A DNA stretch of 64,000 bases, from the NCBI GenBank assembly GCA_021789215.1, contig JAJYJS010000003.1, forward strand, positions 49,828 to 113,827, given 5' to 3'. Below are positions 26,262 through 50,794 of this stretch, piece after piece. Every line of letters starts with the position of its first letter. The stretch's first letter is position 1. Made by a program: the position numbers and the translations under genes. The DNA is from Nitrospirota bacterium (lineage in GTDB: Bacteria; Nitrospirota; Thermodesulfovibrionia; Thermodesulfovibrionales; JdFR-88). Under the pieces are notes generated by a model, which was not told the origin of the DNA, made no database searches, and was given only the letters and a program-made list of their open reading frames with translations.

Positions 26262-26549
26262 TTATGCAGCCGTTATCTCGCCCGCCTCTTTCCCGCCTGC
26301 TTCCAGCTCCTGCGCCTGCTCCTCGTCAAATCTCAGAAGCATGGCCTGGAACTCCCCCACATGGGTCTTTTCCTCCTTTGCGACGCCCAGCATGACCTTT
26401 TTCAGGTCTATGTCCTCGGTCACGGAGGCTATCTGCTCGTAGAGGTTTATGGCATCGAGTTCCGCCATTATGGCAAGCCTCAGCATCTCCCTGTCGGTCA
26501 ACTCCCTGTTCTGCAAGTCGGAGGCGGCAAATGGCAGCAGGGAAAACAT
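26262..26549 (-). CDS. Two-helix half-ferritin (rubrerythrin/EncFtn-like) protein
   Basis: 95-aa ORF. MAELDAINLYEQ ... AKEEKTHVGEF gives the E...ExxH diiron-ligand spacing seen in encapsulated-ferritin-type half-ferritins. Confidence 0.6.
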   Translation of the reverse strand: MFSLLPFAASDLQNRELTDREMLRLAIMAELDAINLYEQIASVTEDIDLKKVMLGVAKEEKTHVGEFQAMLLRFDEEQAQELEAGGKEAGEITAA

Positions 26550-26666
26550 TTTCCTGGCAACCTCCTTTCCTTTTCTAAAAGTCTATACGATTCCGGTTAA
26601 AAATCCATTCCTGTTTGAAATACAGAGAGATATGACAAAAACCCTTTTCTGATAAGATAATTGACG

Positions 26667-27890
26667 ATGAGAAGGGCGGTCGTAACGGGCATTGGCGCGG
26701 TAACCCCGGTTGGCGGCACTATGGCTCGCGCGTGGGAGGCTGTAAAGCGCGGGGAGTGCGGCATCGGCCCCATAACGCGTTTTGATGCCTCGGGGCTTAA
26801 ATGGAGTGTTGCCGGAGAGATCAAAAATTCTTTTGACGCAAGCGCATTTCTGGCCCCGAAAGAGGCAAGGCGGGCCGACCCGTTTTCCGTTTACGCCGCG
26901 GCCTCCGCGATAATGGCCTTGGAGGACGCGGGCCTCCGCCCTCCTGTCGAGGGGCAGGTGATAGCCGGCACAAGCCGGGGCGCCGCAACCCTGATGGAAG
27001 CCGCCTTTTTTTCAGAATGCAAAAAACTTCCCCCTTTTTTCATGCCCTCTTCCGCCGCGGGGATGGCCGCCTCCCTTATAGCGAGAAAGCTTGGGCTAAG
27101 GGGCGGGGCTGCCGGGATTTCAAGCGCCTGCGCCTCCGGCCTGCAAGCCCTGGGTGAGGCGTTCAGGCTCGTAAGGCACGGGCTTGCCGGTCTGGTAATC
27201 GCCTGCGGGGCCGATGCCCCGGTAACCAGGCTCTGCGTCGAGGGCTACGGCAGGGCAGGGGCGCTCTCCAGAAGCAATATAAAAAACCCCAAAGAGGCCA
27301 GCAGGCCCTTTCACCCGGAAAGGGACGGGTTCGTGCTGTCGGAGGGGGCCTGTTCGCTCGTCGTTGAGGAATACGGGAGGGCCGCGCGGAGGGGGGCCCA
27401 AATCTATGGGGAGATAGCCGGGTACGGCCAGGGCATCGACCCCTCCCATGAGACAAGGCCGTCCCCGCCGGGCTGGGCCCGGACTATTTCCGCCGCGCTC
27501 CGGGATGCGGGAGTTGAAGACACCGGGCTCATAATCCCCCATGCGGCATCGACCGTCCTTGGGGACGCGGCTGAAGAGGAGGCGATCTTTACGGCGCTGG
27601 GCAAAACAGCCGCCCGGAAAATCCCGGCATTTCCCGTAAAGGCCTTGACGGGGCATATGCTTGCGGCATCGGGGCCGTTCGAGGCCGCAATAGCCCTGAT
27701 GTGCATGAAAGAAGGGATTGTCCCGCCAAATTATTACCTGAAAGAGGCCCGCATGAAAGAGGCCCCGCCGGGGCTGAATCTTGGCGGGGGAATTTTTTTA
27801 AAAACAGCCCGGCCCGGCTCCGCCCTTGTGAACGCCTTTGGCTTCGGGGGTTTCAGCGCCTCGGTCGTCCTTTACAGCGCCCGCTCGTAA
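26667..27890 (+). CDS. Beta-ketoacyl-ACP synthase II-like condensing enzyme (divergent FabF paralogue)
   Basis: RRAVVTGIGAVTPVG N-terminus and a Cys-His-His triad context (SSACASG, HAASTVLGD, GHMLAASG). The start could be TTG 26661 or ATG 26667. Confidence 0.85.
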   Translation: MRRAVVTGIGAVTPVGGTMARAWEAVKRGECGIGPITRFDASGLKWSVAGEIKNSFDASAFLAPKEARRADPFSVYAAASAIMALEDAGLRPPVEGQVIAGTSRGAATLMEAAFFSECKKLPPFFMPSSAAGMAASLIARKLGLRGGAAGISSACASGLQALGEAFRLVRHGLAGLVIACGADAPVTRLCVEGYGRAGALSRSNIKNPKEASRPFHPERDGFVLSEGACSLVVEEYGRAARRGAQIYGEIAGYGQGIDPSHETRPSPPGWARTISAALRDAGVEDTGLIIPHAASTVLGDAAEEEAIFTALGKTAARKIPAFPVKALTGHMLAASGPFEAAIALMCMKEGIVPPNYYLKEARMKEAPPGLNLGGGIFLKTARPGSALVNAFGFGGFSASVVLYSARS

Positions 27891-28933
27891 ATCCTGTACC
27901 TCTTGTAGACCTCGCCGCCTATCATCTGCGAGATATAGATAATGGGAAGGTTGTCTTCCAGTATCCAGGAGAACTCTATGCGTTTGTATTTATTTCCAAA
28001 GCCCTTTATGCCTTTAAAGCCTTCCCTTATCATGAGGGCCTCGACGCCCCTGTTGCGCCATCCGCTGTCCACGCCAAGGAGCATGAGCCTCAGGGAGTCT
28101 ATCTTTCCCGAGTGGTAGAGCGCCTTTAAAATGGAGACCGGGCCTATCCGCCCCCCCATCTTTCTGAGCACGTGATTGAAATCCGGCACTATCCCCAGAA
28201 ACCCCACGGGTTTTTCCCCGGCCTGGGCTATAATGGTCAGCTCCGGCACAAGGACGCCCTTGAGCTTCTTGGCCATGTCGTCCACCTCCTCCACGGTTAT
28301 CGGGATAAAACCCCAGTTGTCCTTCCATGAGGAGTTATAGACGTCCTTGAAGACCGTAAGCTCCGAATGGAGGTTCTTTTTTTCGAGGAGCCTCGCGGTC
28401 ACGCCCTTTCTCTCAGCGATTGCGGCCACGCGCTCCACCTTCTCCGGAAGCGGCAGGGCCATGTCCCTGATGTATGCAAGAAGATCCTTTGACTTGGCCA
28501 TCCCGCAGGCCGCCATCAGCTCGTTGTAATATGGCGGGTTGTAGGGGGTCATGAGCATCGGCGGGTCCTTGAAGTTTTCGAGCAGGAACCCGCATTCCTC
28601 GTTGGTGGAGAAATTCATCGGCCCCCGCATGACGGAAAGGCCGGATTTTTTAAGCTCGCTGGCTGCGGCCTCGAGCAGGAGCCGGGCCGCCGCGGGGTCG
28701 TTCACGGATTCGTAAAAGCCGAAGAAACCGGCCCTGTCGTCATGGTATTTGAGATGGGCGTGGTTCACGATGGATGCCACCCGGCCAAGGGTTTTACCGC
28801 CGTCCCTGAGCAGGAAAAACCTGACCTGGGCCGTCCTGAAGAAGGGGTTTTTGCCCGGCGTAAACATCTTTTTCTGCTCGATTACGGGCAGGGGGCTGAA
28901 ATTGGGGTCGCCCCCGTAAAGCTCAAAGGGCAC
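27872..28933 (-). CDS. GNAT-like acyltransferase family protein (two-domain, about 350 aa)
   Basis: The C-terminal VDSGWRNRGVEALMI resembles the GNAT acyl-CoA-binding motif A. The last gene of the SDR/alpha-oxoamine synthase operon. Its 3' end overlaps the convergent KAS gene by 19 nt. Confidence 0.5.
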   Translation of the reverse strand: MPFELYGGDPNFSPLPVIEQKKMFTPGKNPFFRTAQVRFFLLRDGGKTLGRVASIVNHAHLKYHDDRAGFFGFYESVNDPAAARLLLEAAASELKKSGLSVMRGPMNFSTNEECGFLLENFKDPPMLMTPYNPPYYNELMAACGMAKSKDLLAYIRDMALPLPEKVERVAAIAERKGVTARLLEKKNLHSELTVFKDVYNSSWKDNWGFIPITVEEVDDMAKKLKGVLVPELTIIAQAGEKPVGFLGIVPDFNHVLRKMGGRIGPVSILKALYHSGKIDSLRLMLLGVDSGWRNRGVEALMIREGFKGIKGFGNKYKRIEFSWILEDNLPIIYISQMIGGEVYKRYRIYERAL

Positions 28934-29006
28934 CCGGATGAACTCGTTCAGCTCCCGGCGGGATTTTACCTCAATGGTTTCCAGTGTTTTCCAGACCTCT
29001 TCCCGC

Positions 29007-30233
29007 TCAGGAGATAATGCCCAGGGACTTGCCGACCTTGCTGAACGCGTTCAGGACGGTCTCAAGGTGCTCGTCGGTATGCGTGGCCATGTAGCTCGTC
29101 CTGATAAGGGCCTTGCCGTTTGGCACCGCGGGGCTCACCGCCACGTTTGCGAAAACGCCCTCTTCCTGGAGCATCATCGCCATCCTGAATGCGGTCTCGT
29201 TCTCGCCGACCATGACGGGGACTATGGGCGTTTCGGTGGGGCCTATCTCGAAGCCCATGTCCTTGAAGCCCTTTATCATCCGCCTGGTTATCTCCCGCAG
29301 GCGGACGAGCCTTTCGGGCTCGCGCTCGATAATGTCGAGGGCGGCGCTCACGGCCGCAACCGAGGCCGGAGGCGGGCTCGCGCTGAATATCAGCGCGCGC
29401 GCGAAGTGCTTTATATAGTGGATGGTGTTTTCGGAGCCGGCGATAAACCCGCCGATTGAGGCCAGAGACTTGGAATAGGTGCCCATTATGAGGTCCACCT
29501 CGTTTTCAAGCCCGAAGTGTTCCGCCGTACCGCGCCCGGTCTTGCCCAGCACGCCTATGCCGTGCGCGTCGTCCACCATCAGCCTCGCGCCGTACCTGTG
29601 GGTGACCTCCAGTATCCCGGGCAGCTTCGCTATGTCGCCTTCCATGCTGAAAACGCCGTCTATGACGACCAGGGCCGGGGTCCCGGCGCTCCCCGAAAGC
29701 ACGCGCTCAAGGTCGGCCACGTCGTTGTGCCTGAACTTCTTGACCTCCCCGTGCGAGAGCCTGCATCCGTCTATGATGCTGGCATGGTCCATCTTGTCTA
29801 TGACGACCATGTCGTCCTTGCCTATGAGGGAGGAGATTACGCCCAGGTTGACCTGGAAGCCGGTCGAGAAGACCAGGGCAGCCTCCTTCCGCATGAAACG
29901 GGCGAGTTTCTCCTCAAGCGCCACATGGATGTCCAGCGTCCCGTTAAGGAAACGGGACCCGGCGCACCCGGTGCCGTATTTCTTTACCGCCTCTATGGCG
30001 GCCTCCTTGACTTTAGGGTGATTGGTAAGCCCCAGGTAATTGTTTGAGCCCACCATTATCATGCGCTTTCCGTTCATGTACACCACGGGGTCCTGGGCGC
30101 TTTCTATCGTGCGGAAATAAGGATAAAGGCCGGCTTCCATGACCTCTCTGGCTTTAGTGAACCGTCTGCACTTCTCGAACAAGTCCTGGCGCTTTATAGC
30201 CATTGATGAATCCTGTACCAGTCTGCTGTCCAC
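29007..30233 (-). CDS. PLP-dependent alpha-oxoamine synthase (serine palmitoyltransferase / BioF / KBL family)
   Basis: [31 protein letters not shown] and [13 protein letters not shown] (PLP lysine) motifs. An alternative start at 30203 gives MAIKRQ. Confidence 0.85.
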
Positions 30234-31180
30234 TTTATTCCTTCCTTTAAGGTGATTTTAGGCATAAAACCGATCTCCCTGCCTGCCCTGCGCGAATCGC
30301 AGGTCCAGTTGCTGTATTTGAGTTCCCGTATTTTATCACGGTTTATTATCCCTGAGCCTTTTTTGTCCAGCCTGGACACCCCCGCGATGACAGGCATCAT
30401 GAATTTCGGCACCGGTATCCTGACGGGCCTTTGCTGCTGTCTGCCCGGCGAAAACACCTCCGAAATGGCAAAGGCTATCTCCTTGTTCGTATACACCCTG
30501 CCGTCCGAGAGAAAAAAGACCTTCCCCGGCGCCTCCGGCGAGACGGCCGCCGCGATTATGCCGGAAACGAGGTCGTCCACATATATCAGGGAGAACCTGC
30601 TCTCCCCGAGATACGGGTAAACCCCTTTCTTCAGGTACCTGAACAGCTGATAGAAATCCCTGTCCCGCGGGCCGTATACGGCCGGGGGCCTGATTATGAC
30701 CACGGGCAGCCTGGCGGCGTACTCGAGGACCGCCTTCTCACCCATGAGCTTGCTTTTGCCGTATTCGGAGACGGGATGGGGCTCCTTCTCCTCCGTGACG
30801 GGGTTGCCGTTCATGGAAGGCCCCGCAGCCGAAAGGCTGCTCAGATACACGAACCTCATCAGGCCGGTCTTTCCCGCTTCCTCATCCGCCGCCTGTATGA
30901 GGTTCTCCGTCCCCTGTGCGTTGACCCTGAAAAAATCGTCCTCTGACCGGGCCTTGGTGAGCCCCGCCAGGTGGAATATCCAGTCCACCCCGCGGACGGC
31001 GGCCGAAAGGGATTGCCTGTCCTCGCAGTCCCCCTGGCACAGGCCCACATTCAGGCCCTCGAGCCAGCGCAGACCCGATGTCTTCCTTACCAGGCAACGC
31101 ACATTATGGCCCTGTTTCAGAAGCTCCGCCGCCAGATGGCTGCCGATGAACCCGGTAGCTCCCGTAACTAAGGCGTTCAT
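30194..31180 (-). CDS. NAD(P)-dependent extended SDR (epimerase/dehydratase-family reductase)
   Basis: [12 protein letters not shown] Rossmann motif and a YGKSK (YxxxK) catalytic motif. It overlaps the downstream alpha-oxoamine synthase gene. Confidence 0.85.
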
Positions 31181-31236
31181 AAGTGAATATTTTGAGGATT
31201 TATGACGAAACTGTCAACTTGAAAAGCAGGGCGCTC

Positions 31237-35401: not shown

Positions 35402-36484
35402 CTATTGGCTTCCGTAAGAATGCAGGCCGCTCAGGAGCAGATTGACCCCCAGGTACGTGAATATGACCGCCACGAACCCGAACACGGCGACAACCGAGAT
35501 CTTGTGCCCCCTCCATCCCCTGAGAAGACGCGCGTGCAGATAGAACGCGTAAACGAACCACGTGATAAGGGACCAGGTCTCCTTGGGATCCCAGCTCCAG
35601 TAAACGCCCCACGCCTGGTCGGCCCAGATTGCGCCGAATATGAGCCCGCCCAGCGTGAATATCGGGAACCCGACCGCTATGCTCTTGTAGGTTATCTCGT
35701 CGAGCATCACGGGGGAGAGCTTGAACGTCTCGATTACGCCTTTCAGCCTGGAGCCGCTCAGCCACACGAGGAAAACAAGCAGCGCCGTCCCGGCGTAGCT
35801 CATCAACTGGACAAACCCTGAGCTGTTCCTGAACGTGCTCTTGAAGAGATAGCTCTTTATGAACGCGTCGGGCTTCATCCCGACCCCGTATCTAACCCAG
35901 TCTATACCCATGGCCAGGAGGACGGCCGCGAATATGCCAAGGGCCGCGGTCCAGAATATGTAGGAGCCTTCATTGCGCTTGTCCGTGGAGGATATCAGAT
36001 ACATGAGCGCCGTGCTGAAGGAAAGCGCGAACATCGAATACGAAATGAAGCTCATCATCACGTGCGCCAGCAGCCAGTTGCTCTGGAGCGCGGGCACCAG
36101 CGGCTGTATCCCCGTGGACATGCCCGAAAGGTTTATGAACGCGAGCGCCAGGACCGCTATGGGCGTCACGAACGCGCCGAAGGAGCGGTTCTTGTATTTG
36201 AACTCTATTATGAGATAGCCCAATATCAGGCACCAGACAAAAAATATCAGGGATTCGTAAAGGTTGGTGAGCGGGACCGAACGCAGGATCCCCATCCCCG
36301 AAAGCTGATAAAATTCCTTCCACCGGAGCAGTATCGCCACCGTCTGGGAGGCAAAGCCGAATATCGTGATGCCCGTCGCGGACAGCCCAATGCCGTTTTT
36401 CCTGAAGGCGATATAGCTCACATAAGCCACCATCGCCAGGATATATGCCACAGTGGAAAGGCCGAAAAACAACGAGCTTTCCAT
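35402..36484 (-). CDS. ccsA: Cytochrome c biogenesis protein CcsA/ResC (System II heme handling)
   Basis: Polytopic protein with the WWD motif region WGVYWSWDPKETWSLITW. The TAATG junction overlaps the resB stop by 1 nt. Confidence 0.9.
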   Translation of the reverse strand: MESSLFFGLSTVAYILAMVAYVSYIAFRKNGIGLSATGITIFGFASQTVAILLRWKEFYQLSGMGILRSVPLTNLYESLIFFVWCLILGYLIIEFKYKNRSFGAFVTPIAVLALAFINLSGMSTGIQPLVPALQSNWLLAHVMMSFISYSMFALSFSTALMYLISSTDKRNEGSYIFWTAALGIFAAVLLAMGIDWVRYGVGMKPDAFIKSYLFKSTFRNSSGFVQLMSYAGTALLVFLVWLSGSRLKGVIETFKLSPVMLDEITYKSIAVGFPIFTLGGLIFGAIWADQAWGVYWSWDPKETWSLITWFVYAFYLHARLLRGWRGHKISVVAVFGFVAVIFTYLGVNLLLSGLHSYGSQ

Positions 36485-38052
36485 TATTTGCTTACCTCCT
36501 TGGTGAGAAGTGCGGTTTTTAGTTGTTCTATCTGCCTTTCGAAGGCGCTCTTGTTCTTGTTCGACGATGCCGCCACCGTGATCCTCGAACCGCCTTTATC
36601 CTGTGCCACCCTGACCCATATCTTCCTGTGGCTTACGAAAAACGCCACGAAAAGCCCGAGAGCAAGCGTTATGCACCCGAAATAGACCACCCATACCCCC
36701 GGGTCTTTCCTGGCCTGCACCCCCGTGTACCTGACGCCCCAGAAATCGGTGAGCCCCACTATGTTGCCGTCCGGGAGCTGCCAGGATTCCGGATACCGTT
36801 TGGCTATCCATTTGGTCGCCGTCCTGCCGTCGGGGAATTTCAGCGACACCTTTATGGCCGGGTTGGTCATCATCGGGGAGTAGGTGTACGGGTTTCCGGC
36901 CTCGTCAAAGTTGAGGGCCGGGTTGAACTCGTCAATCTTGCCGGTTATGCCCGTGCCGGGTATCGTGAAGCTGTCTCCCACCTTGAGCCGTTCAACATCG
37001 CTCGCGCCTTTTGCGGACTTCAGCTCAAGCACGGCCACGCCGCCCGAGGTGTCCGGCAGCACGCCGTAGCTGGACTGGTAAAAGGTGACGCCCTTGTATT
37101 TGAGCGGCTCGTTCACCTCTATCCATTTGCTGAGGACGGGCTTGCCGCCGTCAAAAACCGTGAGATGGCTCTTGTAGGCCTTGGGCATATCGCTGTTCGG
37201 ATAATAATCGACATCGAACTGGTCGCATCTGACGGCAAAGCCAAGCGGCACGATGCCCAGGTGCCTGAGCCTGCGGGTGAGCGCAGGCACGCTCACGCCA
37301 AGTTCCTTCGCAACCTGTCCCACGTCGCCCTGCGCGCTGTCCATGATGTCCAGCAGCTTGTTTCTCTCGTCGAATTCCGCCTGGGACGATATCCCCGTAT
37401 TGGCATATACAAGGTTGGTCGCAAGGCCCTCGGGTATGTTCACAAAACCCTTGAACCCGAAGAAGATGCCTATCACCGCGCCAAGCATGATTACCACTAT
37501 GCTGAAGTGGGTTATATACACGCCGAGCCTGCTCCAGGCGTGCTTCTGCGCGTAGAACTGGAAGCCCCCTTCCTCGTCCTCCCGTGCGGCGTTAAACCCG
37601 ATGCCCCTGATCGAGGACAGGACGCTTTCACGGAGCGCCGCGGGTTTTGCCTTTACCGCAAGCTCGGCCTTTATGGGCATGTTCCTGAACGCATCCGGCG
37701 GCAGGGGCCTTACCGGCGTCCTCACGACGCGCCAGATGCCGGGGAACCTGTCAATCGAGCAGATAATCAGGTTTACAGCGAAGAGGACCAGGAGGAGCAG
37801 GAACCACCACGAGCGGTACATGTTCATGAAGCCAAGCGTATCCAGGACCTTGTAGGCGGTGGGCGCAAGCCCGTCGCCAAAGATGCTCCCAAGCACCTTG
37901 AGGTTCTTTTCCGGGGCAGCCTGCTGCTCTACAACCGTGCCGACAATGGAGGTCAGGGCTATGAGCGAAAATACGATTATCGCCAGTTTGATGGAAGCAA
38001 GAAAAGACCATATCCTGTCGGACAGGCTTTTTTGCTTTTGCTGGTTCTCCAA
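36484..38052 (-). CDS. resB: Cytochrome c biogenesis protein ResB/CcsB (System II)
   Basis: 522-aa ORF with ResB topology: two N-terminal TM helices, a third TM helix, a large periplasmic domain and a C-terminal TM helix. It sits immediately upstream of ccsA. Confidence 0.85.
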   Translation of the reverse strand: MENQQKQKSLSDRIWSFLASIKLAIIVFSLIALTSIVGTVVEQQAAPEKNLKVLGSIFGDGLAPTAYKVLDTLGFMNMYRSWWFLLLLVLFAVNLIICSIDRFPGIWRVVRTPVRPLPPDAFRNMPIKAELAVKAKPAALRESVLSSIRGIGFNAAREDEEGGFQFYAQKHAWSRLGVYITHFSIVVIMLGAVIGIFFGFKGFVNIPEGLATNLVYANTGISSQAEFDERNKLLDIMDSAQGDVGQVAKELGVSVPALTRRLRHLGIVPLGFAVRCDQFDVDYYPNSDMPKAYKSHLTVFDGGKPVLSKWIEVNEPLKYKGVTFYQSSYGVLPDTSGGVAVLELKSAKGASDVERLKVGDSFTIPGTGITGKIDEFNPALNFDEAGNPYTYSPMMTNPAIKVSLKFPDGRTATKWIAKRYPESWQLPDGNIVGLTDFWGVRYTGVQARKDPGVWVVYFGCITLALGLFVAFFVSHRKIWVRVAQDKGGSRITVAASSNKNKSAFERQIEQLKTALLTKEVSK

Positions 38053-44052: not shown

Positions 44053-45267
44053 ATGATAACGGTGGAACAGCTTGGCGGAAGGCCCGTATGGGAAGAGTAT
44101 GCCGAGGCGGCCGAGAGGAAGGGTATTGGCCATCCGGACACCATCACGGACAGCATCTGCGAGGCCGTTTCAATCGCGCTCTCAAAAGAATACCTCAGCT
44201 CGGCGGGAAGGATACTGCACTACAACATAGACAAGGGGCTGTTGTCCGCCGGAACGGCCCGGAAGGATTTCCGTGGCGGGAAGGTGCTTAAGCCCATGCG
44301 CCTTTACATAGGCGACAGGGCGACATTCGAGTTCATGGGCAAAAAAATCCCGGTCCGGGAGGTCGCGGCCGGAGCCGCCAGAAAATGGATATCGGAGAAC
44401 CTGCGCTTCGTGGAGCCGGAACGCCACGTGCGCTGCAACGTGGTGCTCGCGCCGGGCTCCGCCCAACTGGCGAAGATATACACGAATGGGTCCGGCGTTC
44501 CGGCGGCAAACGACACCTCAGCCGCAACCGGATACTGGCCGCTTTCCCCCACCGAAGAGATGGTGCTTGCACTCGAAAAATACCTCAATTCAAAGGCCTT
44601 CAAAAACCGCTTCCCCGAAACCGGCGAAGACGTCAAGGTGATGGGCCTGAGGGAGGGCAGGCAGCTTTCCCTTACGGTCGCCATGCCGCTTGTGGACAGG
44701 TTCATACGCACGGAGGCCGAATATTTCGAGAGGAAACAGACGGTGCTTGAGATGATGGAAAGGTTCGTTGCGGCCCGCAACAGGGGCGCTTTCGATGACG
44801 TGCTGCTCTATTTCAACAGCCTCGACGAAAGGGGAAAGGGGCTTGCGGGCATATACCTGAGCGTGCTGGGCACCTCGGCCGAGGACGCCGACAGCGGCCA
44901 GGCAGGGCGCGGCAACAGGGTGAACGGGCTCATAAGCTTCTGCCGCCCCCAGGGGATGGAGGCCGCCGCCGGCAAAAACCCGAAAAGCCACGTGGGGAAG
45001 ATATATAACGTGCTCTCCTATAAGCTGGCCAGGAGGATTTACGAGGAAGTGGAGGGGCTGTCGGAGGCCTGCGTGCTGCTTGTCAGCAGGATAGGGCTTC
45101 CGGTAAACAGTCCGCCATTGGTTTCCGCCAGACTGAGGCTCAAAAAGGGCGTCCGCATCGGCGATGTCTCAGGCCCGGCGAGGGAGATAATCGAGGAAGA
45201 GCTTTCGGCGAAAAAGATTTCGTCCTTCACGCGGGAGCTTGCGCGGGGCAAATACAGCGTGTGCTAA
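44053..45267 (+). CDS. Archaeal-type S-adenosylmethionine synthetase (methionine adenosyltransferase)
   Basis: The protein is collinear with the archaeal MAT family as I remember it (M. jannaschii type): ERKGIGHPD, ANDTS, GEDVKVMGLREG, LGTSAEDADSGQAGRGNRVNGLI, MEAAAGKNPKSHVGKIYN. It lacks the bacterial MetK motifs. Confidence 0.85.
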   Translation: MITVEQLGGRPVWEEYAEAAERKGIGHPDTITDSICEAVSIALSKEYLSSAGRILHYNIDKGLLSAGTARKDFRGGKVLKPMRLYIGDRATFEFMGKKIPVREVAAGAARKWISENLRFVEPERHVRCNVVLAPGSAQLAKIYTNGSGVPAANDTSAATGYWPLSPTEEMVLALEKYLNSKAFKNRFPETGEDVKVMGLREGRQLSLTVAMPLVDRFIRTEAEYFERKQTVLEMMERFVAARNRGAFDDVLLYFNSLDERGKGLAGIYLSVLGTSAEDADSGQAGRGNRVNGLISFCRPQGMEAAAGKNPKSHVGKIYNVLSYKLARRIYEEVEGLSEACVLLVSRIGLPVNSPPLVSARLRLKKGVRIGDVSGPAREIIEEELSAKKISSFTRELARGKYSVC

Positions 45268-47583: not shown

Positions 47584-50028
47584 ATGGATAAATTCATGAA
47601 GCACGCTTGCATGGTTGTCCTTGCGGCCGTCCTCCTGCTGGGGGCGGCGGGTATTTCTCGGGCGGAAGACGTAGATTGCCTGAGCTGCCACAAGGACATG
47701 GCCACGGGGAAGGACGTGCACCCCGCCGTATCCATGGGATGCACATCCTGCCACACCGGCGTGGACGCGACCCAGTTCCCGCACAAGTTCCAGGGCGACA
47801 AAGGTCTTTCAGCCGAGCCGCCGGATCTCTGCTTCGGCTGCCATGACAAGTCCAAGTTCACAGGCAAGGACGTTCACGCCCCCGTAAAAATGGGCATGTG
47901 CACGGCCTGCCATAACCCGCACAGGTCTGACAACAGAAAACTCCTTGTCTCGCTTCCACCGGACCTCTGCTTCGGCTGCCACAACAAGGAAAAGCTCACG
48001 GGCAAGCATATGGTGCACCCCCCGGTGGCCCAGGGGATGTGCACAAGCTGCCACAACCCCCATGCCTCCAATAACCCGAAGCTCCTCCTGGCGGAACCCC
48101 CGGACCTCTGCTTCAACTGCCACGACAAGGCGAAATTCAGCAAAAAAGACGTCCATCCGCCTGTTGCGGCGGGTATGTGCACAAGCTGCCACACCCCCCA
48201 TACAAGCGATAATAAGAGATTGCTGCTTGCGGAGCCGCCAAAGCTCTGCTTTACATGCCATGACGAGAAGAATTTTTCCGGCAAGGCCCATCAGCATCCG
48301 CCTGTTGCGGCGGGCATGTGCACCTCCTGCCATAACCCGCATTCAAGCGATAACGATAAGCTCCTGGCCGAGGCACCCCCGGCCCTGTGTTTCAACTGCC
48401 ATGATTCGAGCAAGTTCACCAAGGGCAAGAGCGTCCATCCGCCTGTTGCCGCCGGGATGTGCACAAACTGCCACGAGCCGCACCAGTCCGGACAGGACAA
48501 ACTCCTGAAGGCGGAGCCGCCGGAGCTCTGCTGGAACTGCCACGATAAAAACAGCCTAATGGCTGGCAAATTCCCGCACCCTCCGTTCGAGGCCGGGATG
48601 TGCCTGTCGTGCCACCAGCCGCACCGGTCGGATTCCGGAAAGCTGCTCGTCAAAGAGCCGCCGGAGCTGTGTTACGACTGCCACGACAAGTCCATGATGA
48701 AGGGCAAGGACCTTCACCCGCCCGTTGCCGCCGGGATGTGCACAAGCTGCCACAGCCCCCATGCGGGGAAGGCCCCCAAGGCGCTCCTTGAGGAGCCTCC
48801 GGCCCTCTGCTTTGGCTGCCATGACAAGGCCCAATTCTCGAAAAAGGACGTACATGCTCCCGTTGCCGCCGGGATGTGCACGAAATGCCACTTCCCGCAT
48901 GCGGGGGACTCAGACAAGCTGCTCAGGGCGGAGCCGCCAAAGCTCTGCTTCACCTGCCACGACAAAAACAAGTTTTCGGGCAAAAAGGATATTCACCCCC
49001 CGGTTGAGGCCGGGATGTGCACGACCTGCCATAACCCGCATTCAAGCGATACAAACAGGCTGCTGGCAAGCAATACGCCGGACCTCTGCTTCAATTGCCA
49101 CGACAAGAGCAAATTCACGATCGGCAATGCCGCGGCCAACGGGCCTTCCATTCATCCGCCCGTTGCCGCAGGGCTCTGCACCGGCTGCCACCAGCCGCAC
49201 CAGTCCGATACGGAAAAGCTGCTGAGGGCAGAGCCCCCGGACCTCTGCTTCAGATGCCATGACAAGAACATCATTATGGGCGGCAAGCACAAGCACCCGC
49301 CGGTCGAGGCCGGGATGTGCCTTTCCTGCCATCAGCCGCACAAGTCTGATGTCGCCAGAAAGCTCCTGGTGAAGAACCCTCCGGAGCTTTGTCTGGACTG
49401 CCATGACAAGGCGCTTGTTTCCGGCAAGAAGGACGTGCACCCGCCGGTTGCCGCGGGTCTTTGCACCTCCTGCCATAACCCGCACTCTTCGGCTTATCCC
49501 AAAATGCTGGTGCGGGATGTGCCCGAGCTGTGCTTTAAATGCCATGAAAAGGGCAAATTCACGGACATGAGGAGGATACACGGCCCGGCCAAGATAGGCA
49601 TGTGCCTTTTCTGCCACCAGCCGCACCAGTCGGAAAACAAGGGGCTCCTTCAAAAACCTGTGCCAGCGCTGTGCTTTACCTGCCACAGGCAGTCGCAGTT
49701 CACGCCGAGCCACCCGCATCCGCCGGTGCAGCAGGGCAAGTGCCTTGAGTGCCACGTGAAGCACTCCTCAAGGTATGCCTTCCTGTTGCAGAGGCCTGGA
49801 AACGAGACCTGCCGGAAATGCCACGCCGATATCTTCAACGGCCCCCACGCCGTTATGGTCATCGGCACAGGCCACCCGCTGAGCGGGCCGCGCGATCCCA
49901 GGAGACCGAACAGGCGGTTTGGATGCGCCAGCTGCCATAACCCGCACGGCTCCGAGAGCATGAAGATATTCAGGTACAAGGTCAAAAAAGACCCGTATGA
50001 GCTGTGCATCAACTGCCATCCAAAATAG
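47584..50028 (+). CDS. 33-heme (33 x CXXCH) multiheme cytochrome c composed of tandem doubled-CXXCH modules
   Basis: 814-aa ORF with a signal peptide (..GISRA/ED). I counted 33 CXXCH motifs by hand. There are 14 tandem 46-47-aa units between a 2-heme N-cap and a 3-heme C-cap. A TATAAT-like box at 47560-47565 lies upstream. Confidence 0.9.
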   Translation: MDKFMKHACMVVLAAVLLLGAAGISRAEDVDCLSCHKDMATGKDVHPAVSMGCTSCHTGVDATQFPHKFQGDKGLSAEPPDLCFGCHDKSKFTGKDVHAPVKMGMCTACHNPHRSDNRKLLVSLPPDLCFGCHNKEKLTGKHMVHPPVAQGMCTSCHNPHASNNPKLLLAEPPDLCFNCHDKAKFSKKDVHPPVAAGMCTSCHTPHTSDNKRLLLAEPPKLCFTCHDEKNFSGKAHQHPPVAAGMCTSCHNPHSSDNDKLLAEAPPALCFNCHDSSKFTKGKSVHPPVAAGMCTNCHEPHQSGQDKLLKAEPPELCWNCHDKNSLMAGKFPHPPFEAGMCLSCHQPHRSDSGKLLVKEPPELCYDCHDKSMMKGKDLHPPVAAGMCTSCHSPHAGKAPKALLEEPPALCFGCHDKAQFSKKDVHAPVAAGMCTKCHFPHAGDSDKLLRAEPPKLCFTCHDKNKFSGKKDIHPPVEAGMCTTCHNPHSSDTNRLLASNTPDLCFNCHDKSKFTIGNAAANGPSIHPPVAAGLCTGCHQPHQSDTEKLLRAEPPDLCFRCHDKNIIMGGKHKHPPVEAGMCLSCHQPHKSDVARKLLVKNPPELCLDCHDKALVSGKKDVHPPVAAGLCTSCHNPHSSAYPKMLVRDVPELCFKCHEKGKFTDMRRIHGPAKIGMCLFCHQPHQSENKGLLQKPVPALCFTCHRQSQFTPSHPHPPVQQGKCLECHVKHSSRYAFLLQRPGNETCRKCHADIFNGPHAVMVIGTGHPLSGPRDPRRPNRRFGCASCHNPHGSESMKIFRYKVKKDPYELCINCHPK
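47815..49755 (+). repeat. Intragenic tandem repeat array (about 138-141-nt period, 14 units) encoding the doubled-CXXCH modules
   Basis: The 15-mer ccggacctctgcttc recurs exactly at 47959, 48100, 49078 and 49237, with one mismatch at 47821. It occurs again at 50291 and 50430 in the downstream paralogue. Confidence 0.85.
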
Positions 50029-50071
50029 ACTGGTCCACTTTTCAATGCAATTGCAAAAGGAGTTTTGAGAG

Positions 50072-50794
50072 ATGAGGATTTCAGCTGTTGTGGTCATTTT
50101 CATGACACTCTGCCTTGCGGGGGTCTCCCGCGCGGCGGAGGTCGACTGCGTTTCATGCCACAAGGATTTGACCGAGGGGAAGACCGTCCACCCGGCCGTG
50201 ATGATGGGTTGCGCCGTCTGCCACACAGGCGTGGACGCAACCAAGGTGCCCCACAAGTTCACCGGCAAGCTGGGTCTGGCCGCTGAGCCGCCGGACCTCT
50301 GCTTCAATTGCCATAAGCGCGAGGACTTTATCGCCGCTGACGTCCACCCTCCGGTGAGCATGGGCATGTGCACCTCCTGCCATAACCCCCACAGGTCAGA
50401 CCAGCCGAAACTCCTCATAGCGCCAATACCGGACCTCTGCTTCAACTGCCATGAAAAGCAGGAGTTCACTAAAAAAGACGTCCACGCGCCGGTCAAGGCC
50501 GGCCAATGCCTGAAATGCCATATGCCGCATGTCAGCCCGAATTCCAAGCTGCTCCAGAAAAAGGGCGTCTTCCTGTGCAGGCAATGTCATGCTAACATTG
50601 AGAGGCAGGTCCATGTTGTAGCGGGTTTCTCCTCCGCGGGCCATCCGCTCAAGGGCAAACAGGACCCCCTCAGGAAGGGCAAGCCTTTTGAATGCCTGAG
50701 TTGCCACGTGCCGCATTCCTCGGACTGGGGAAGGCTGTTCAGGTACAAGGCCAACGATGCATTCGGTTTGTGCAACTACTGTCATAAATTTTAG
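50072..50794 (+). CDS. Nonaheme cytochrome c, short paralogue of the 33-heme protein
   Basis: Signal peptide (..GVSRA/AE) and 9 CXXCH motifs. The N-cap and C-cap align with those of the 33-heme protein, with only 2 internal doubled units. An AAGGAG RBS is present, and the gene starts 43 nt after the upstream stop. Confidence 0.9.
   Translation: MRISAVVVIFMTLCLAGVSRAAEVDCVSCHKDLTEGKTVHPAVMMGCAVCHTGVDATKVPHKFTGKLGLAAEPPDLCFNCHKREDFIAADVHPPVSMGMCTSCHNPHRSDQPKLLIAPIPDLCFNCHEKQEFTKKDVHAPVKAGQCLKCHMPHVSPNSKLLQKKGVFLCRQCHANIERQVHVVAGFSSAGHPLKGKQDPLRKGKPFECLSCHVPHSSDWGRLFRYKANDAFGLCNYCHKF

What the first reader, a model, noticed from the sequence alone, without database searches (positions are those of the whole stretch)
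26661..31180. Alpha-oxoamine synthase, extended SDR and GNAT-like acyltransferase (plus divergent KAS): a possible bacterial ceramide or aminolipid pathway
The minus-strand operon encodes an extended SDR (GATGFIG, YGKSK), a PLP alpha-oxoamine synthase with serine-palmitoyltransferase-like motifs, and a 353-aa GNAT-like protein. A divergent FabF-like condensing enzyme with a Cys-His-His triad converges on the operon and overlaps its 3' end by 19 nt. As I recall the Caulobacter bacterial ceramide pathway, it uses exactly these three enzyme classes: Spt, an NDUFA9/epimerase-family reductase CerR, and a GNAT-type ceramide synthase. The same chemistry could instead yield another long-chain amino-ketone-derived lipid or signal, such as a sulfonolipid or a CAI-1-like molecule. 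Sphingolipid-type lipids in this kind of lineage would be noteworthy.
Basis: inference. Interest (0 to 1): 0.6.

Follow-up and report, generated by a model that had tools for sequence, protein, structure and literature searches.

The report
Bacterial ceramide synthesis operon (spt–bcerS–cerR)
This is a three-gene operon for making ceramide-type (sphingolipid) membrane lipids in an uncultured Nitrospirota bacterium; it is a clear but ordinary copy of a pathway already described in Caulobacter and already predicted for this lineage.

Summary
All four genes exist as described. The minus-strand operon encodes three proteins. The first is an extended SDR that is 29% identical over its full length to the E. 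coli and Sphingomonas 'epi'/CerR reductases. The second is an alpha-oxoamine synthase that groups with four named bacterial serine palmitoyltransferases and away from BioF/KBL (93% NJ bootstrap). It is 52% identical to Sphingobacterium SPT. The third is a tandem-GNAT protein 30% identical over 99% of its length to E. coli YghO. The literature lists YghO as the counterpart of the Caulobacter ceramide N-acyltransferase CC_1154 (bCerS). The GNAT gene lies next to an Spt-like gene in 58 of 80 genome loci from many phyla, usually with the SDR. Natural Spt–GNAT fusion proteins also exist. Three corrections apply. The GNAT gene is probably 370 aa with a CTG start, not 353 aa. No dedicated ACP or acyl-ACP synthetase lies in the window. 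The convergent FabF-like gene has an intact Cys-His-His triad but neighbours the cluster only in some Nitrospirota, so nothing ties it to the pathway. Novelty is low. Published work predicts these genes in about 40 phyla and names Thermodesulfovibrio explicitly. The amino-acid substrate and the final lipid remain untested.

The parts
30194..31180 (-). cerR-like gene: an extended SDR (328 aa), the predicted NAD(P)H-dependent 3-keto reductase and first gene of the operon
   Evidence: It matches Pfam Epimerase/3Beta_HSD. The GxxGxxG and YxxxK motifs are visible in the translation. It is 29% identical over its full length to the Sphingomonas (E 3e-41) and E. coli (E 2e-40) 'epi'/CerR genes beside spt. 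A homologue lies within 5 kb of the GNAT gene in 33 of 49 well-flanked loci.
29007..30233 (-). spt: a PLP-dependent alpha-oxoamine synthase of the serine palmitoyltransferase clade. The ORF runs from GTG 30233, but the likely start is ATG 30203 (398 aa).
   Evidence: Its best NCBIfam hit is SerpalmtaseCFB at 567 bits, against BioF 408, KBL 409, HemA 263 and CqsA 231. Its best PDB hit is Sphingobacterium SPT at 427 bits, against Thermus BioF/KBL at 328. The blocks [13 protein letters not shown] and GT(F/Y)SKSLAS are shared with Sphingobacterium SPT. An NJ tree gives 93% bootstrap for a clade with four named SPTs that excludes BioF and KBL.
27872..28984 (-). bcerS-like gene: a tandem-GNAT N-acyltransferase of the YghO/CC_1154 family. 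The proposed protein is 370 aa from CTG 28984; the mechanical ORF and the public annotation start at GTG 28933 (353 aa).
   Evidence: It has no Pfam, NCBIfam or PDB sequence hit. The AlphaFold model has pLDDT 88 and pTM 0.86 with a tandem-GNAT fold; its top PDB matches are MAB_4324, the clavulanate-pathway tandem GNAT and MshD. It is 30% identical over 99% of its length to E. coli YghO (E 6e-59) and 29% identical to the Sphingomonas N-acetyltransferase near spt (E 2e-55). The N-terminal extension is shown.
26667..27890 (+). A FabF-like beta-ketoacyl-ACP synthase paralogue, convergent with the operon and overlapping the bcerS 3' end by 19 nt. It is a neighbour and is not shown to belong to the pathway.
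   Evidence: It matches Pfam ketoacyl-synt N and C domains. It scores 331.7 bits against the fabF model, below the 493.75 cut-off. It is 38% identical to E. coli FabF, and C164, H304, H341 and K336 are invariant in the alignment. It lies next to the GNAT gene only in the six Nitrospirota/Nitrospiraceae-labelled loci L003, L004, L005, L007, L011 and L015.
31189..31217 (-). A sigma-70-like promoter match (TTGACA-17-CAAAAT) in the 56-nt gap between htpX and the SDR gene. It is a candidate promoter for the operon.
   Evidence: It matches 10 of 12 consensus positions. This is a consensus match only, not evidence of function.
28996..29004 (-). A Shine-Dalgarno-like GGGAAGAGG about 11 nt upstream of the proposed CTG start of bcerS
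   Evidence: Read directly from the sequence.

Best explanation
The minus-strand genes 31180-27872 form a cerR-spt-bcerS operon for a dihydroceramide-type lipid. Step 1 (inferred from family): Spt, a PLP enzyme, condenses L-serine, or possibly another small amino acid, with a long-chain acyl thioester to give 3-ketodihydrosphingosine. Step 2 (inferred): the tandem-GNAT bCerS N-acylates that amine. Step 3 (inferred): the extended SDR CerR reduces the 3-keto group with NAD(P)H to give dihydroceramide. This step order follows the Caulobacter model; reduction before acylation is also possible. The three genes are tightly packed. The SDR stop overlaps the Spt start, and only 22 nt separate the Spt stop from the proposed bcerS start. 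A promoter-like site lies upstream of the SDR gene. The window contains no dedicated AcpR or AasR, and the Spt is of the Bacteroidota/delta-type rather than the Rhodobacteria type. Acyl-CoA or housekeeping acyl-ACP is therefore the likely acyl donor. The convergent FabF-like gene is most likely just a neighbour.
For: Spt identity: searches give HMM and PDB rankings with Spt above BioF and KBL, which in turn score above HemA and CqsA. One search shows the shared active-site blocks. One search gives 93% bootstrap for the clade with four named SPTs. bCerS identity: searches show full-length homology to E. coli YghO and to the Sphingomonas N-acetyltransferase. The latter lies six genes downstream of the spt gene in the cerR-acp-spt cluster. 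PMC9386255 lists CC_1154, yghO ECD_02850, Swit_3908 and DRN02_007910 together as the N-acyltransferase (aca) genes required for dihydroceramide synthesis. Searches show the tandem-GNAT fold. CerR identity: searches show the homology, and one search shows that the reference CerRs share its best NCBIfam hit (HpnA) and several others. Functional linkage: an Spt-like gene lies beside the GNAT gene in 58 of 80 genome loci from many phyla. Among the 49 loci with at least 3 kb on both sides, 36 have it and 31 also have the SDR. Several different gene orders occur. Two independent clusters of Spt-GNAT fusion proteins exist, one with three full-length members and one with two. The window holds a single hit to each of the three reference proteins.
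Against: No enzyme of this clade has been assayed. Identity to the reference bCerS and CerR proteins is only 29-30%. I could not obtain the Caulobacter CCNA_01212 sequence, so the link to the genetically proven enzyme runs through a published gene listing, not a direct alignment. The Spt scores below the NCBIfam equivalog cut-off (567 against 640). Sequence alone does not separate the SDR from HpnA-like reductases. The amino-acid substrate cannot be read from the sequence. Published Black Sea data show abundant 1-deoxyceramides in anoxic water. No head-group or export genes lie nearby.
Confidence: 0.8

Rival explanations
1. The same three enzymes act, but the synthase uses alanine or glycine instead of serine. 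The product would then be a 1-deoxy- or nor-sphingoid ceramide rather than a canonical dihydroceramide.
For: The Black Sea study found abundant 1-deoxyceramides in euxinic water and attributed them to anaerobes that carry Spt-like genes (PMC11334938). The Spt falls below the curated equivalog cut-off.
Against: The AOS is 52% identical to the serine-using Sphingobacterium SPT and shares its active-site blocks.
Confidence: 0.12
2. The cluster makes a sulfonolipid (capnine-type). In this reading the AOS is a cysteate-C-fatty acyltransferase and the SDR is a dehydrocapnine reductase.
For: Cysteate acyltransferases are close AOS relatives and appear among the PDB hits (28eh at 252 bits and 7u7h at 243 bits). 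The chemistry of condensation, reduction and N-acylation is parallel.
Against: These hits score far below SPT (427 bits). The Pfam-scanned ORFs of the window showed no cysteate synthase. The partner GNAT is homologous to the ceramide N-acyltransferase family.
Confidence: 0.03
3. The AOS is a BioF, KBL or CqsA-type enzyme for biotin synthesis, threonine catabolism or an alpha-hydroxyketone signal. In this reading the GNAT and SDR genes are unrelated neighbours.
For: AOS families cross-hit one another: BioF scores 408, KBL 409 and CqsA 231 bits.
Against: The Spt models score highest. The tree separates the AOS from BioF and KBL. The trio is conserved across phyla in several different gene orders, and fusion proteins exist.
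Confidence: 0.01
4. The convergent FabF-like KAS is a functional fourth component. It might build or elongate the dedicated acyl chain for Spt or bCerS in place of the proteobacterial AcpR/AasR system.
For: It keeps an intact catalytic triad and is divergent from canonical FabF (331.7 against 493.75 bits). It sits convergent and immediately downstream of bcerS in six Nitrospirota loci. Several of its homologues come from contigs whose lengths match those of GNAT homologues. The window has no AcpR or AasR.
Against: It is absent beside the cluster in all other phyla and in several Nitrospirota loci, including L006, L010, L012 and L036. The clearly unrelated htpX is conserved next to the cluster to a similar degree in the same clade, so shared ancestry of gene order is a sufficient explanation. 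It is on the opposite strand and has no ACP partner.
Confidence: 0.12

Closest known systems
Caulobacter crescentus ceramide pathway: Spt (CC_1162/CCNA_01220), bCerS (CC_1154/CCNA_01212) and CerR (CC_1164/CCNA_01222), described by Olea-Ozuna 2021 and Stankeviciute 2022 as cited in PMC11087976 and PMC9386255
   Same: It uses the same three enzyme classes. Homologues of all three are present. The predicted chemistry is the same: condensation, N-acylation and 3-keto reduction.
   Different: The window has no dedicated AcpR or AasR. The three genes form one compact operon, whereas in Caulobacter bcerS lies several genes away from spt. The Spt belongs to the Bacteroidota/delta-type subgroup, with 52% identity to Sphingobacterium SPT against 38% to Sphingomonas and E. 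coli SPT. I made no direct alignment to the Caulobacter proteins.
E. coli spt-acpR-epi-aasR-yghO cluster (ECD_02850-02854 in BL21; PMC9386255)
   Same: YghO is 30% identical over 99% of the window GNAT. The 'epi' protein is 29% identical to the window SDR. The SPT is 39% identical to the window AOS.
   Different: The E. coli cluster adds an ACP and a fatty acyl-AMP ligase and transcribes yghO divergently. It is present at 80% coverage or more in 4068 of 5426 complete E. coli genomes.
Sphingobacterium multivorum serine palmitoyltransferase (PDB 3A2B, 8GUH)
   Same: It is the closest solved structure (427 bits) at 52% identity. It has identical active-site blocks and a similar length (399 aa).
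   Different: In Bacteroidota the three pathway genes are reported not to be clustered (PMC11334938). Here they form an operon.
Tandem-GNAT acyltransferases with solved structures (MAB_4324 7Q3A, clavulanate-pathway tandem GNAT 2WPW, MshD 1OZP, Eis)
   Same: They share the two-GNAT-domain fold (Foldseek E about 1e-13 to 1e-10, TM about 0.55-0.6).
   Different: Sequence identity is only 10-15%. They use different substrates. No solved structure of a bCerS-family protein was found by sequence.

Membership tests
Bacterial serine palmitoyltransferase (Spt) | Fold-type I PLP alpha-oxoamine synthase with the conserved His / Asp-x-x-His / Lys active-site blocks | tested here: met
   Pfam Aminotran_1_2 scores 197 bits. 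[13 protein letters not shown] and GTYSKSLAS align with the same blocks of Sphingobacterium SPT.
Bacterial serine palmitoyltransferase (Spt) | Groups with characterised SPTs to the exclusion of BioF, KBL, HemA and CqsA | tested here: met
   The NJ tree gives 93% bootstrap for a clade with S. multivorum, S. wittichii, S. parapaucimobilis and E. coli SPTs that excludes BioF and KBL. HMM scores are Spt 567, BioF 408, KBL 409, HemA 263 and CqsA 231 bits. HemA and CqsA were not included in the tree.
Bacterial serine palmitoyltransferase (Spt) | Reaches the curated NCBIfam equivalog score | tested here: not met
   SerpalmtaseCFB scores 567 bits against a cut-off of 640; the BetaP model scores 421 against 500 and the AlphaP model 333 against 670. 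These models are lineage-specific and none exists for Nitrospirota.
Bacterial serine palmitoyltransferase (Spt) | Condenses L-serine with a long-chain acyl thioester | not testable with these tools
   This needs an enzyme assay or lipidomics.
Bacterial ceramide synthase bCerS (CC_1154 / YghO family) | Full-length homology to the genes assigned as the ceramide N-acyltransferase | tested here: met
   It is 30% identical over 99% of its length to E. coli YghO (E 6e-59). It is 29% identical to the Sphingomonas protein (E 2e-55). PMC9386255 lists yghO together with CC_1154 as the aca genes.
Bacterial ceramide synthase bCerS (CC_1154 / YghO family) | Direct similarity to the genetically proven Caulobacter CCNA_01212 | not tested
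Bacterial ceramide synthase bCerS (CC_1154 / YghO family) | GNAT-fold acyltransferase | tested here: met
   The AlphaFold model (pLDDT 88) has a tandem-GNAT fold, and Foldseek probability is 1.00 to tandem GNATs. Many homologues carry PF00583, although the window protein itself is below Pfam detection.
Bacterial ceramide synthase bCerS (CC_1154 / YghO family) | Genomic association with spt and cerR | tested here: met
   58 of 80 loci have an adjacent Spt. Of the 49 well-flanked loci, 36 have Spt and 31 have both Spt and the SDR. Spt-GNAT fusions exist.
Ceramide reductase CerR | Extended SDR with an N-terminal GxxGxxG motif and a catalytic YxxxK motif | tested here: met
   TGATGFIG and YGKSK appear in the translation. 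Pfam Epimerase scores 136 bits.
Ceramide reductase CerR | Homology to the epi/CerR genes of the Rhodobacteria clusters | tested here: met
   It is 29% identical over its full length to the Sphingomonas (E 3e-41) and E. coli (E 2e-40) proteins.
Ceramide reductase CerR | Sequence distinguishes it from other extended SDRs such as HpnA, OleD and 3beta-HSD | tested here: inconclusive
   Its best NCBIfam hit is HpnA at 147 bits, below the 367 cut-off. The reference CerRs show the same non-specific top hit. The assignment rests on synteny.
Ceramide reductase CerR | Periplasmic location, as reported for Caulobacter CerR (PMC11087976) | not testable with these tools
   The N-terminus is the Rossmann motif itself, with no visible signal peptide. 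The E. coli and Sphingomonas homologues begin the same way.
Rhodobacteria-type five-gene sphingolipid system (Spt + AcpR + AasR + epi + aca) | A dedicated ACP and acyl-ACP synthetase beside spt | tested here: not met
   tblastn with the ACP of E. coli and of Sphingomonas and with the E. coli acyl-AMP ligase found nothing in the 64-kb window, and no ACP-like motif ORF was found. The rest of the genome was not available.
FabF (beta-ketoacyl-ACP synthase II), for the convergent KAS | Cys-His-His triad and the two ketoacyl-synthase domains | tested here: met
FabF (beta-ketoacyl-ACP synthase II), for the convergent KAS | Reaches the fabF equivalog score | tested here: not met
   It scores 331.7 bits against the 493.75 cut-off. 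Its closest relatives are only about 53% identical.

The most novel reading that the evidence does not exclude
In this Nitrospirota clade the compact cerR-spt-bcerS operon might work with the conserved convergent FabF-like paralogue as a self-contained module. The condensing enzyme would supply a dedicated acyl chain, replacing the AcpR/AasR system of Proteobacteria, and the product would be an unusual sphingoid lipid such as a 1-deoxy or otherwise modified form, specific to anaerobic or thermophilic sulfate reducers.
Probability: 0.08. Interest if true: 0.5.

Novelty: new member of a known kind. Interest (0 to 1): 0.2.

Why it matters
The locus adds one more uncultured Nitrospirota genome to the list of bacteria predicted to make sphingolipids. 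It also shows that the public annotation of the bCerS-like gene in this record ('hypothetical protein', truncated at 353 aa) misses a recognisable ceramide-synthesis gene. Neither Pfam nor NCBIfam has a model for the bCerS/YghO family, so this gene will often go unnamed in metagenome annotation. The biology itself is already established. The pathway is characterised in Caulobacter, is predicted in about 40 phyla, and is named for Thermodesulfovibrio in the literature. The practical value lies in better annotation and in pointing to cultured Thermodesulfovibrio strains as a place to confirm the lipid.

Tried and rejected
1. Sequence searches of the GNAT-like protein against Pfam, NCBIfam and PDB gave nothing. 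Fold prediction and a tblastn of annotated plasmid records supplied the link instead.
2. The AlphaFold-database Foldseek library was unavailable, so I could not find named relatives by fold.
3. The Stankeviciute 2022 paper could not be read by DOI or PMC id. The Black Sea paper's text and held supplements do not mention Nitrospirota by name. Whether the phylum is in their list of 38 is therefore unknown.
4. A search for an ACP or acyl-ACP synthetase in the window was negative.
5. Pfam scans of 20 other large ORFs in the window found no fab genes, head-group transferases or lipid transporters.
6. The terminator scan was uninformative, with 9 sites found against 8.5 expected.
7. The sulfonolipid, CAI-1, BioF and KBL readings were considered and rejected on score ranking, tree placement and partner genes.
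8. I considered the KAS as a pathway member and rejected it for lack of synteny outside one clade.

Full report
OBSERVATION. They are a FabF-like KAS (26661-27890, +), a GNAT-like ORF (27872-28933, -), an alpha-oxoamine synthase (AOS; 29007-30233, -) and an extended SDR (30194-31180, -). The KAS and GNAT 3' ends overlap by 19 nt. Pfam and NCBIfam confirm the classes for three of them. The quoted motifs are all present: GATGFIG and YGKSK in the SDR, the SKS lysine motif in the AOS, and the Cys-His-His triad in the KAS. The window comes from an uncultured Nitrospiraceae-type MAG. The GNAT-like protein is 100% identical to 'MAG: hypothetical protein M0Z59_09950 [Nitrospiraceae bacterium]'.

CORRECTIONS TO GENE MODELS. 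All 33 aligned homologues of the GNAT-like protein have about 17 more N-terminal residues. In the window the same frame stays open upstream and encodes the matching sequence 'ETIEVKSRRELNEFIRVPFELY'. No ATG, GTG or TTG occurs in that stretch. An in-frame CTG at 28984 lies about 11 nt downstream of GGGAAGAGG and gives a 370-aa protein, in line with the family's 367-372 aa. In the AlphaFold model these residues form a confident strand and helix (pLDDT about 96). The 353-aa call, which the public record shares, is therefore probably truncated. The cause is either a genuine CTG start or an assembly error. The AOS probably starts at ATG 30203, giving 398 aa. The public record's 407-aa KAS fits the ATG at 26667.

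THE SYNTHASE IS AN SPT. NCBIfam ranks the CFB-type serine palmitoyltransferase model first at 567 bits. BioF/Kbl-related scores 435, KBL 409, BioF 408, HemA 263 and CqsA 231 bits. Among solved structures, Sphingobacterium multivorum SPT is best at 427 bits. Thermus BioF/KBL follows at 328 bits, Sphingomonas SPTs at 289, cysteate acyltransferase at 252 and CqsA at 136. The active-site blocks match Sphingobacterium SPT. I built an NJ tree with 100 bootstraps from the window AOS, 16 AOS genes found next to GNAT homologues in other phyla, four named bacterial SPTs, E. coli BioF and KBL, and Thermus BioF/KBL. The window protein falls in a 93%-supported clade with all four SPTs, and BioF and KBL fall outside it. 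It is 52% identical to the Sphingobacterium enzyme and 38-39% identical to the proteobacterial SPTs. It does not reach any curated equivalog cut-off, but those models are lineage-specific.

THE GNAT-LIKE PROTEIN IS A bCerS/YghO-FAMILY MEMBER. Sequence libraries gave nothing. The family is nevertheless very large: 2270 representative clusters reach E<=1e-30. The AlphaFold model (pLDDT 88, pTM 0.86) has a tandem-GNAT fold. A tblastn against annotated plasmid records found full-length matches to E. coli YghO and to a Sphingomonas parapaucimobilis N-acetyltransferase. The Sphingomonas gene lies six genes downstream of the spt gene in a cerR-acp-spt cluster. The E. coli gene lies beside spt, an ACP gene, an epimerase-family reductase gene and a fatty acyl-AMP ligase gene. 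Pairwise identity is 29-30% over 98-99% of the length, with E-values of 2e-55 and 6e-59. Motifs such as NWGF(I/V)P and SW(I/V)L(E/D)xN are shared. PMC9386255 lists 'aca: CC_1154, yghO ECD_02850, Swit_3908, DRN02_007910 ...' as the N-acyltransferase genes required for dihydroceramide synthesis. CC_1154 is the Caulobacter bCerS. I could not align to the Caulobacter protein directly.

THE SDR IS A CerR HOMOLOGUE. It aligns over its full length at 29% identity with the reductases of the Sphingomonas and E. coli clusters (E 3e-41 and 2e-40). Those reference proteins share its best NCBIfam hit (HpnA), also below cut-off, together with several others such as OleD and SdmB. Sequence alone therefore does not define the subfamily, and gene context has to carry the assignment.

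CONTEXT ACROSS GENOMES. A scan of one genome per species returned 80 loci that encode a relative of the GNAT protein. Their record titles name Nitrospirota, Gemmatimonadota, Zixibacteria, Planctomycetota, Acidobacteriota, Elusimicrobiota, Bacteroidota/Ignavibacteria, Bdellovibrionota, Myxococcota, Cloacimonadota and others. An Spt-like gene is adjacent in 58 of the 80 loci. Among the 49 loci with at least 3 kb on both sides, 36 have Spt and 31 have both Spt and the SDR. Gene order varies: SDR-Spt-GNAT, Spt-GNAT-SDR, a divergent SDR beside Spt-GNAT, and GNAT-Spt all occur. That pattern indicates selection for linkage rather than inherited order. The four loci labelled Cloacimonadota lack an adjacent Spt. 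This fits the published remark that Cloacimonadota Spt genes are not co-located with bcerS and cerR. Two separate clusters of natural Spt-GNAT fusion proteins exist, one with three full-length members and one with two.

MECHANISM. The most likely sequence has three steps, all inferred by homology. Spt condenses serine with an acyl thioester to give 3-ketodihydrosphingosine. bCerS N-acylates it. CerR reduces the 3-keto group. This order follows the Caulobacter model described in PMC11087976, and the Spt-bCerS fusions are consistent with it. The genes are tightly packed, and a promoter-like site lies in the htpX-SDR gap. The window holds no AcpR or AasR homologue. That fits the Bacteroidota/delta-type Spt subgroup, which PMC9386255 distinguishes from the ACP-dependent Rhodobacteria subgroup. 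The amino-acid substrate, chain lengths, head group and cellular location are not determined.

THE KAS. It is a FabF paralogue, 38% identical to E. coli FabF, with the catalytic Cys, both His residues and the active-site Lys intact. It scores below the fabF cut-off, and its closest relatives are only about 53% identical. It lies convergent to bcerS in six Nitrospirota loci. It is absent there in other Nitrospirota loci and in every other phylum. The unrelated htpX gene is conserved beside the cluster to a similar degree in the same clade. I therefore treat the KAS as a neighbour and give about 12% probability to a functional tie.

NOVELTY. The pathway was defined in Caulobacter. Homologues were reported in 9 phyla and then predicted in about 40 (PMC11334938). 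A lipidomics paper states that the genetic potential occurs in 'Thermodesulfovibrio and Ignavibacter', and it correlates glycosphingolipids with Thermodesulfovibrionia sequence variants (PMC10667739). The locus is therefore a well-supported new member of a known kind.

Noticed in passing
window 28933-28984 (-): The bcerS-like gene appears to use a CTG start, or the assembly carries an error in an ATG. The public annotation and the mechanical ORF call are truncated by 17 conserved residues that form part of the fold.
   Followed up: yes
proteins P0161/P0390/P0393 (780 aa) and P0221/P0394 (777 aa): These are natural fusion proteins with an N-terminal Spt-like AOS and a C-terminal bCerS-like tandem GNAT. 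They fall in two clusters less than 50% identical to each other and come from several independent contigs. Fusion of steps 1 and 2 is consistent with the model in which acylation precedes reduction.
   Followed up: partly
proteins P0228 (940 aa), P0193/P0201 (about 500 aa) and P0121 (784 aa): Other architectures occur in the family: bCerS-like plus a fatty acyl-AMP ligase domain, an N-terminal PilZ domain plus bCerS-like (hinting at c-di-GMP control), and a tandem duplication. P0228 and P0121 are singletons. Cluster sizes of the PilZ forms were not looked up.
   Followed up: partly
L082 (E. coli PN43 record): The spt-acp-epimerase-acyl-AMP ligase-yghO cluster is present at 80% coverage or more in 4068 of 5426 complete E. 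coli genomes. NCBIfam and Pfam have no model for YghO/bCerS, so members of the family outside E. coli are commonly labelled 'hypothetical', 'N-acetyltransferase' or 'dATP pyrophosphohydrolase'.
   Followed up: partly
window residues 127-137 of the 370-aa bCerS-like protein (about 28574-28606, -): Part of the family's strongly conserved RGPMNFSTNEECGFL motif falls in the only low-confidence stretch of the AlphaFold model (pLDDT below 50). It may be a mobile substrate or lid loop.
   Followed up: no
window 27763-27799 (+): A strong terminator-like hairpin (11 pairs, 8 G-C) followed by a T-run lies inside the KAS coding region about 90 nt before its stop. The KAS has a 5-residue insertion relative to its homologues near this point. 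The reverse-strand stem lies about 100 nt downstream of the bcerS stop. The overall terminator count is no higher than chance.
   Followed up: no
window 26262-26549 (-): A small encapsulin-associated ferritin-like (EncFtn/EncB-family) gene lies divergent from the KAS. I did not look for an encapsulin shell gene.
   Followed up: no
window 47584-50794 (+) and 35402-38052 (-): An 814-aa multihaem cytochrome with 16 paired-CXXCH repeats and a 240-aa companion lie in the window, together with ResB/CcsA-type cytochrome c biogenesis genes. This suggests an extensive extracellular or periplasmic electron-transfer capacity.
   Followed up: no
window 44053-45267 (+): The S-adenosylmethionine synthetase here matches Pfam PF01941 (486 bits). 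As I recall, this is the archaeal-type enzyme rather than the usual bacterial MetK.
   Followed up: no
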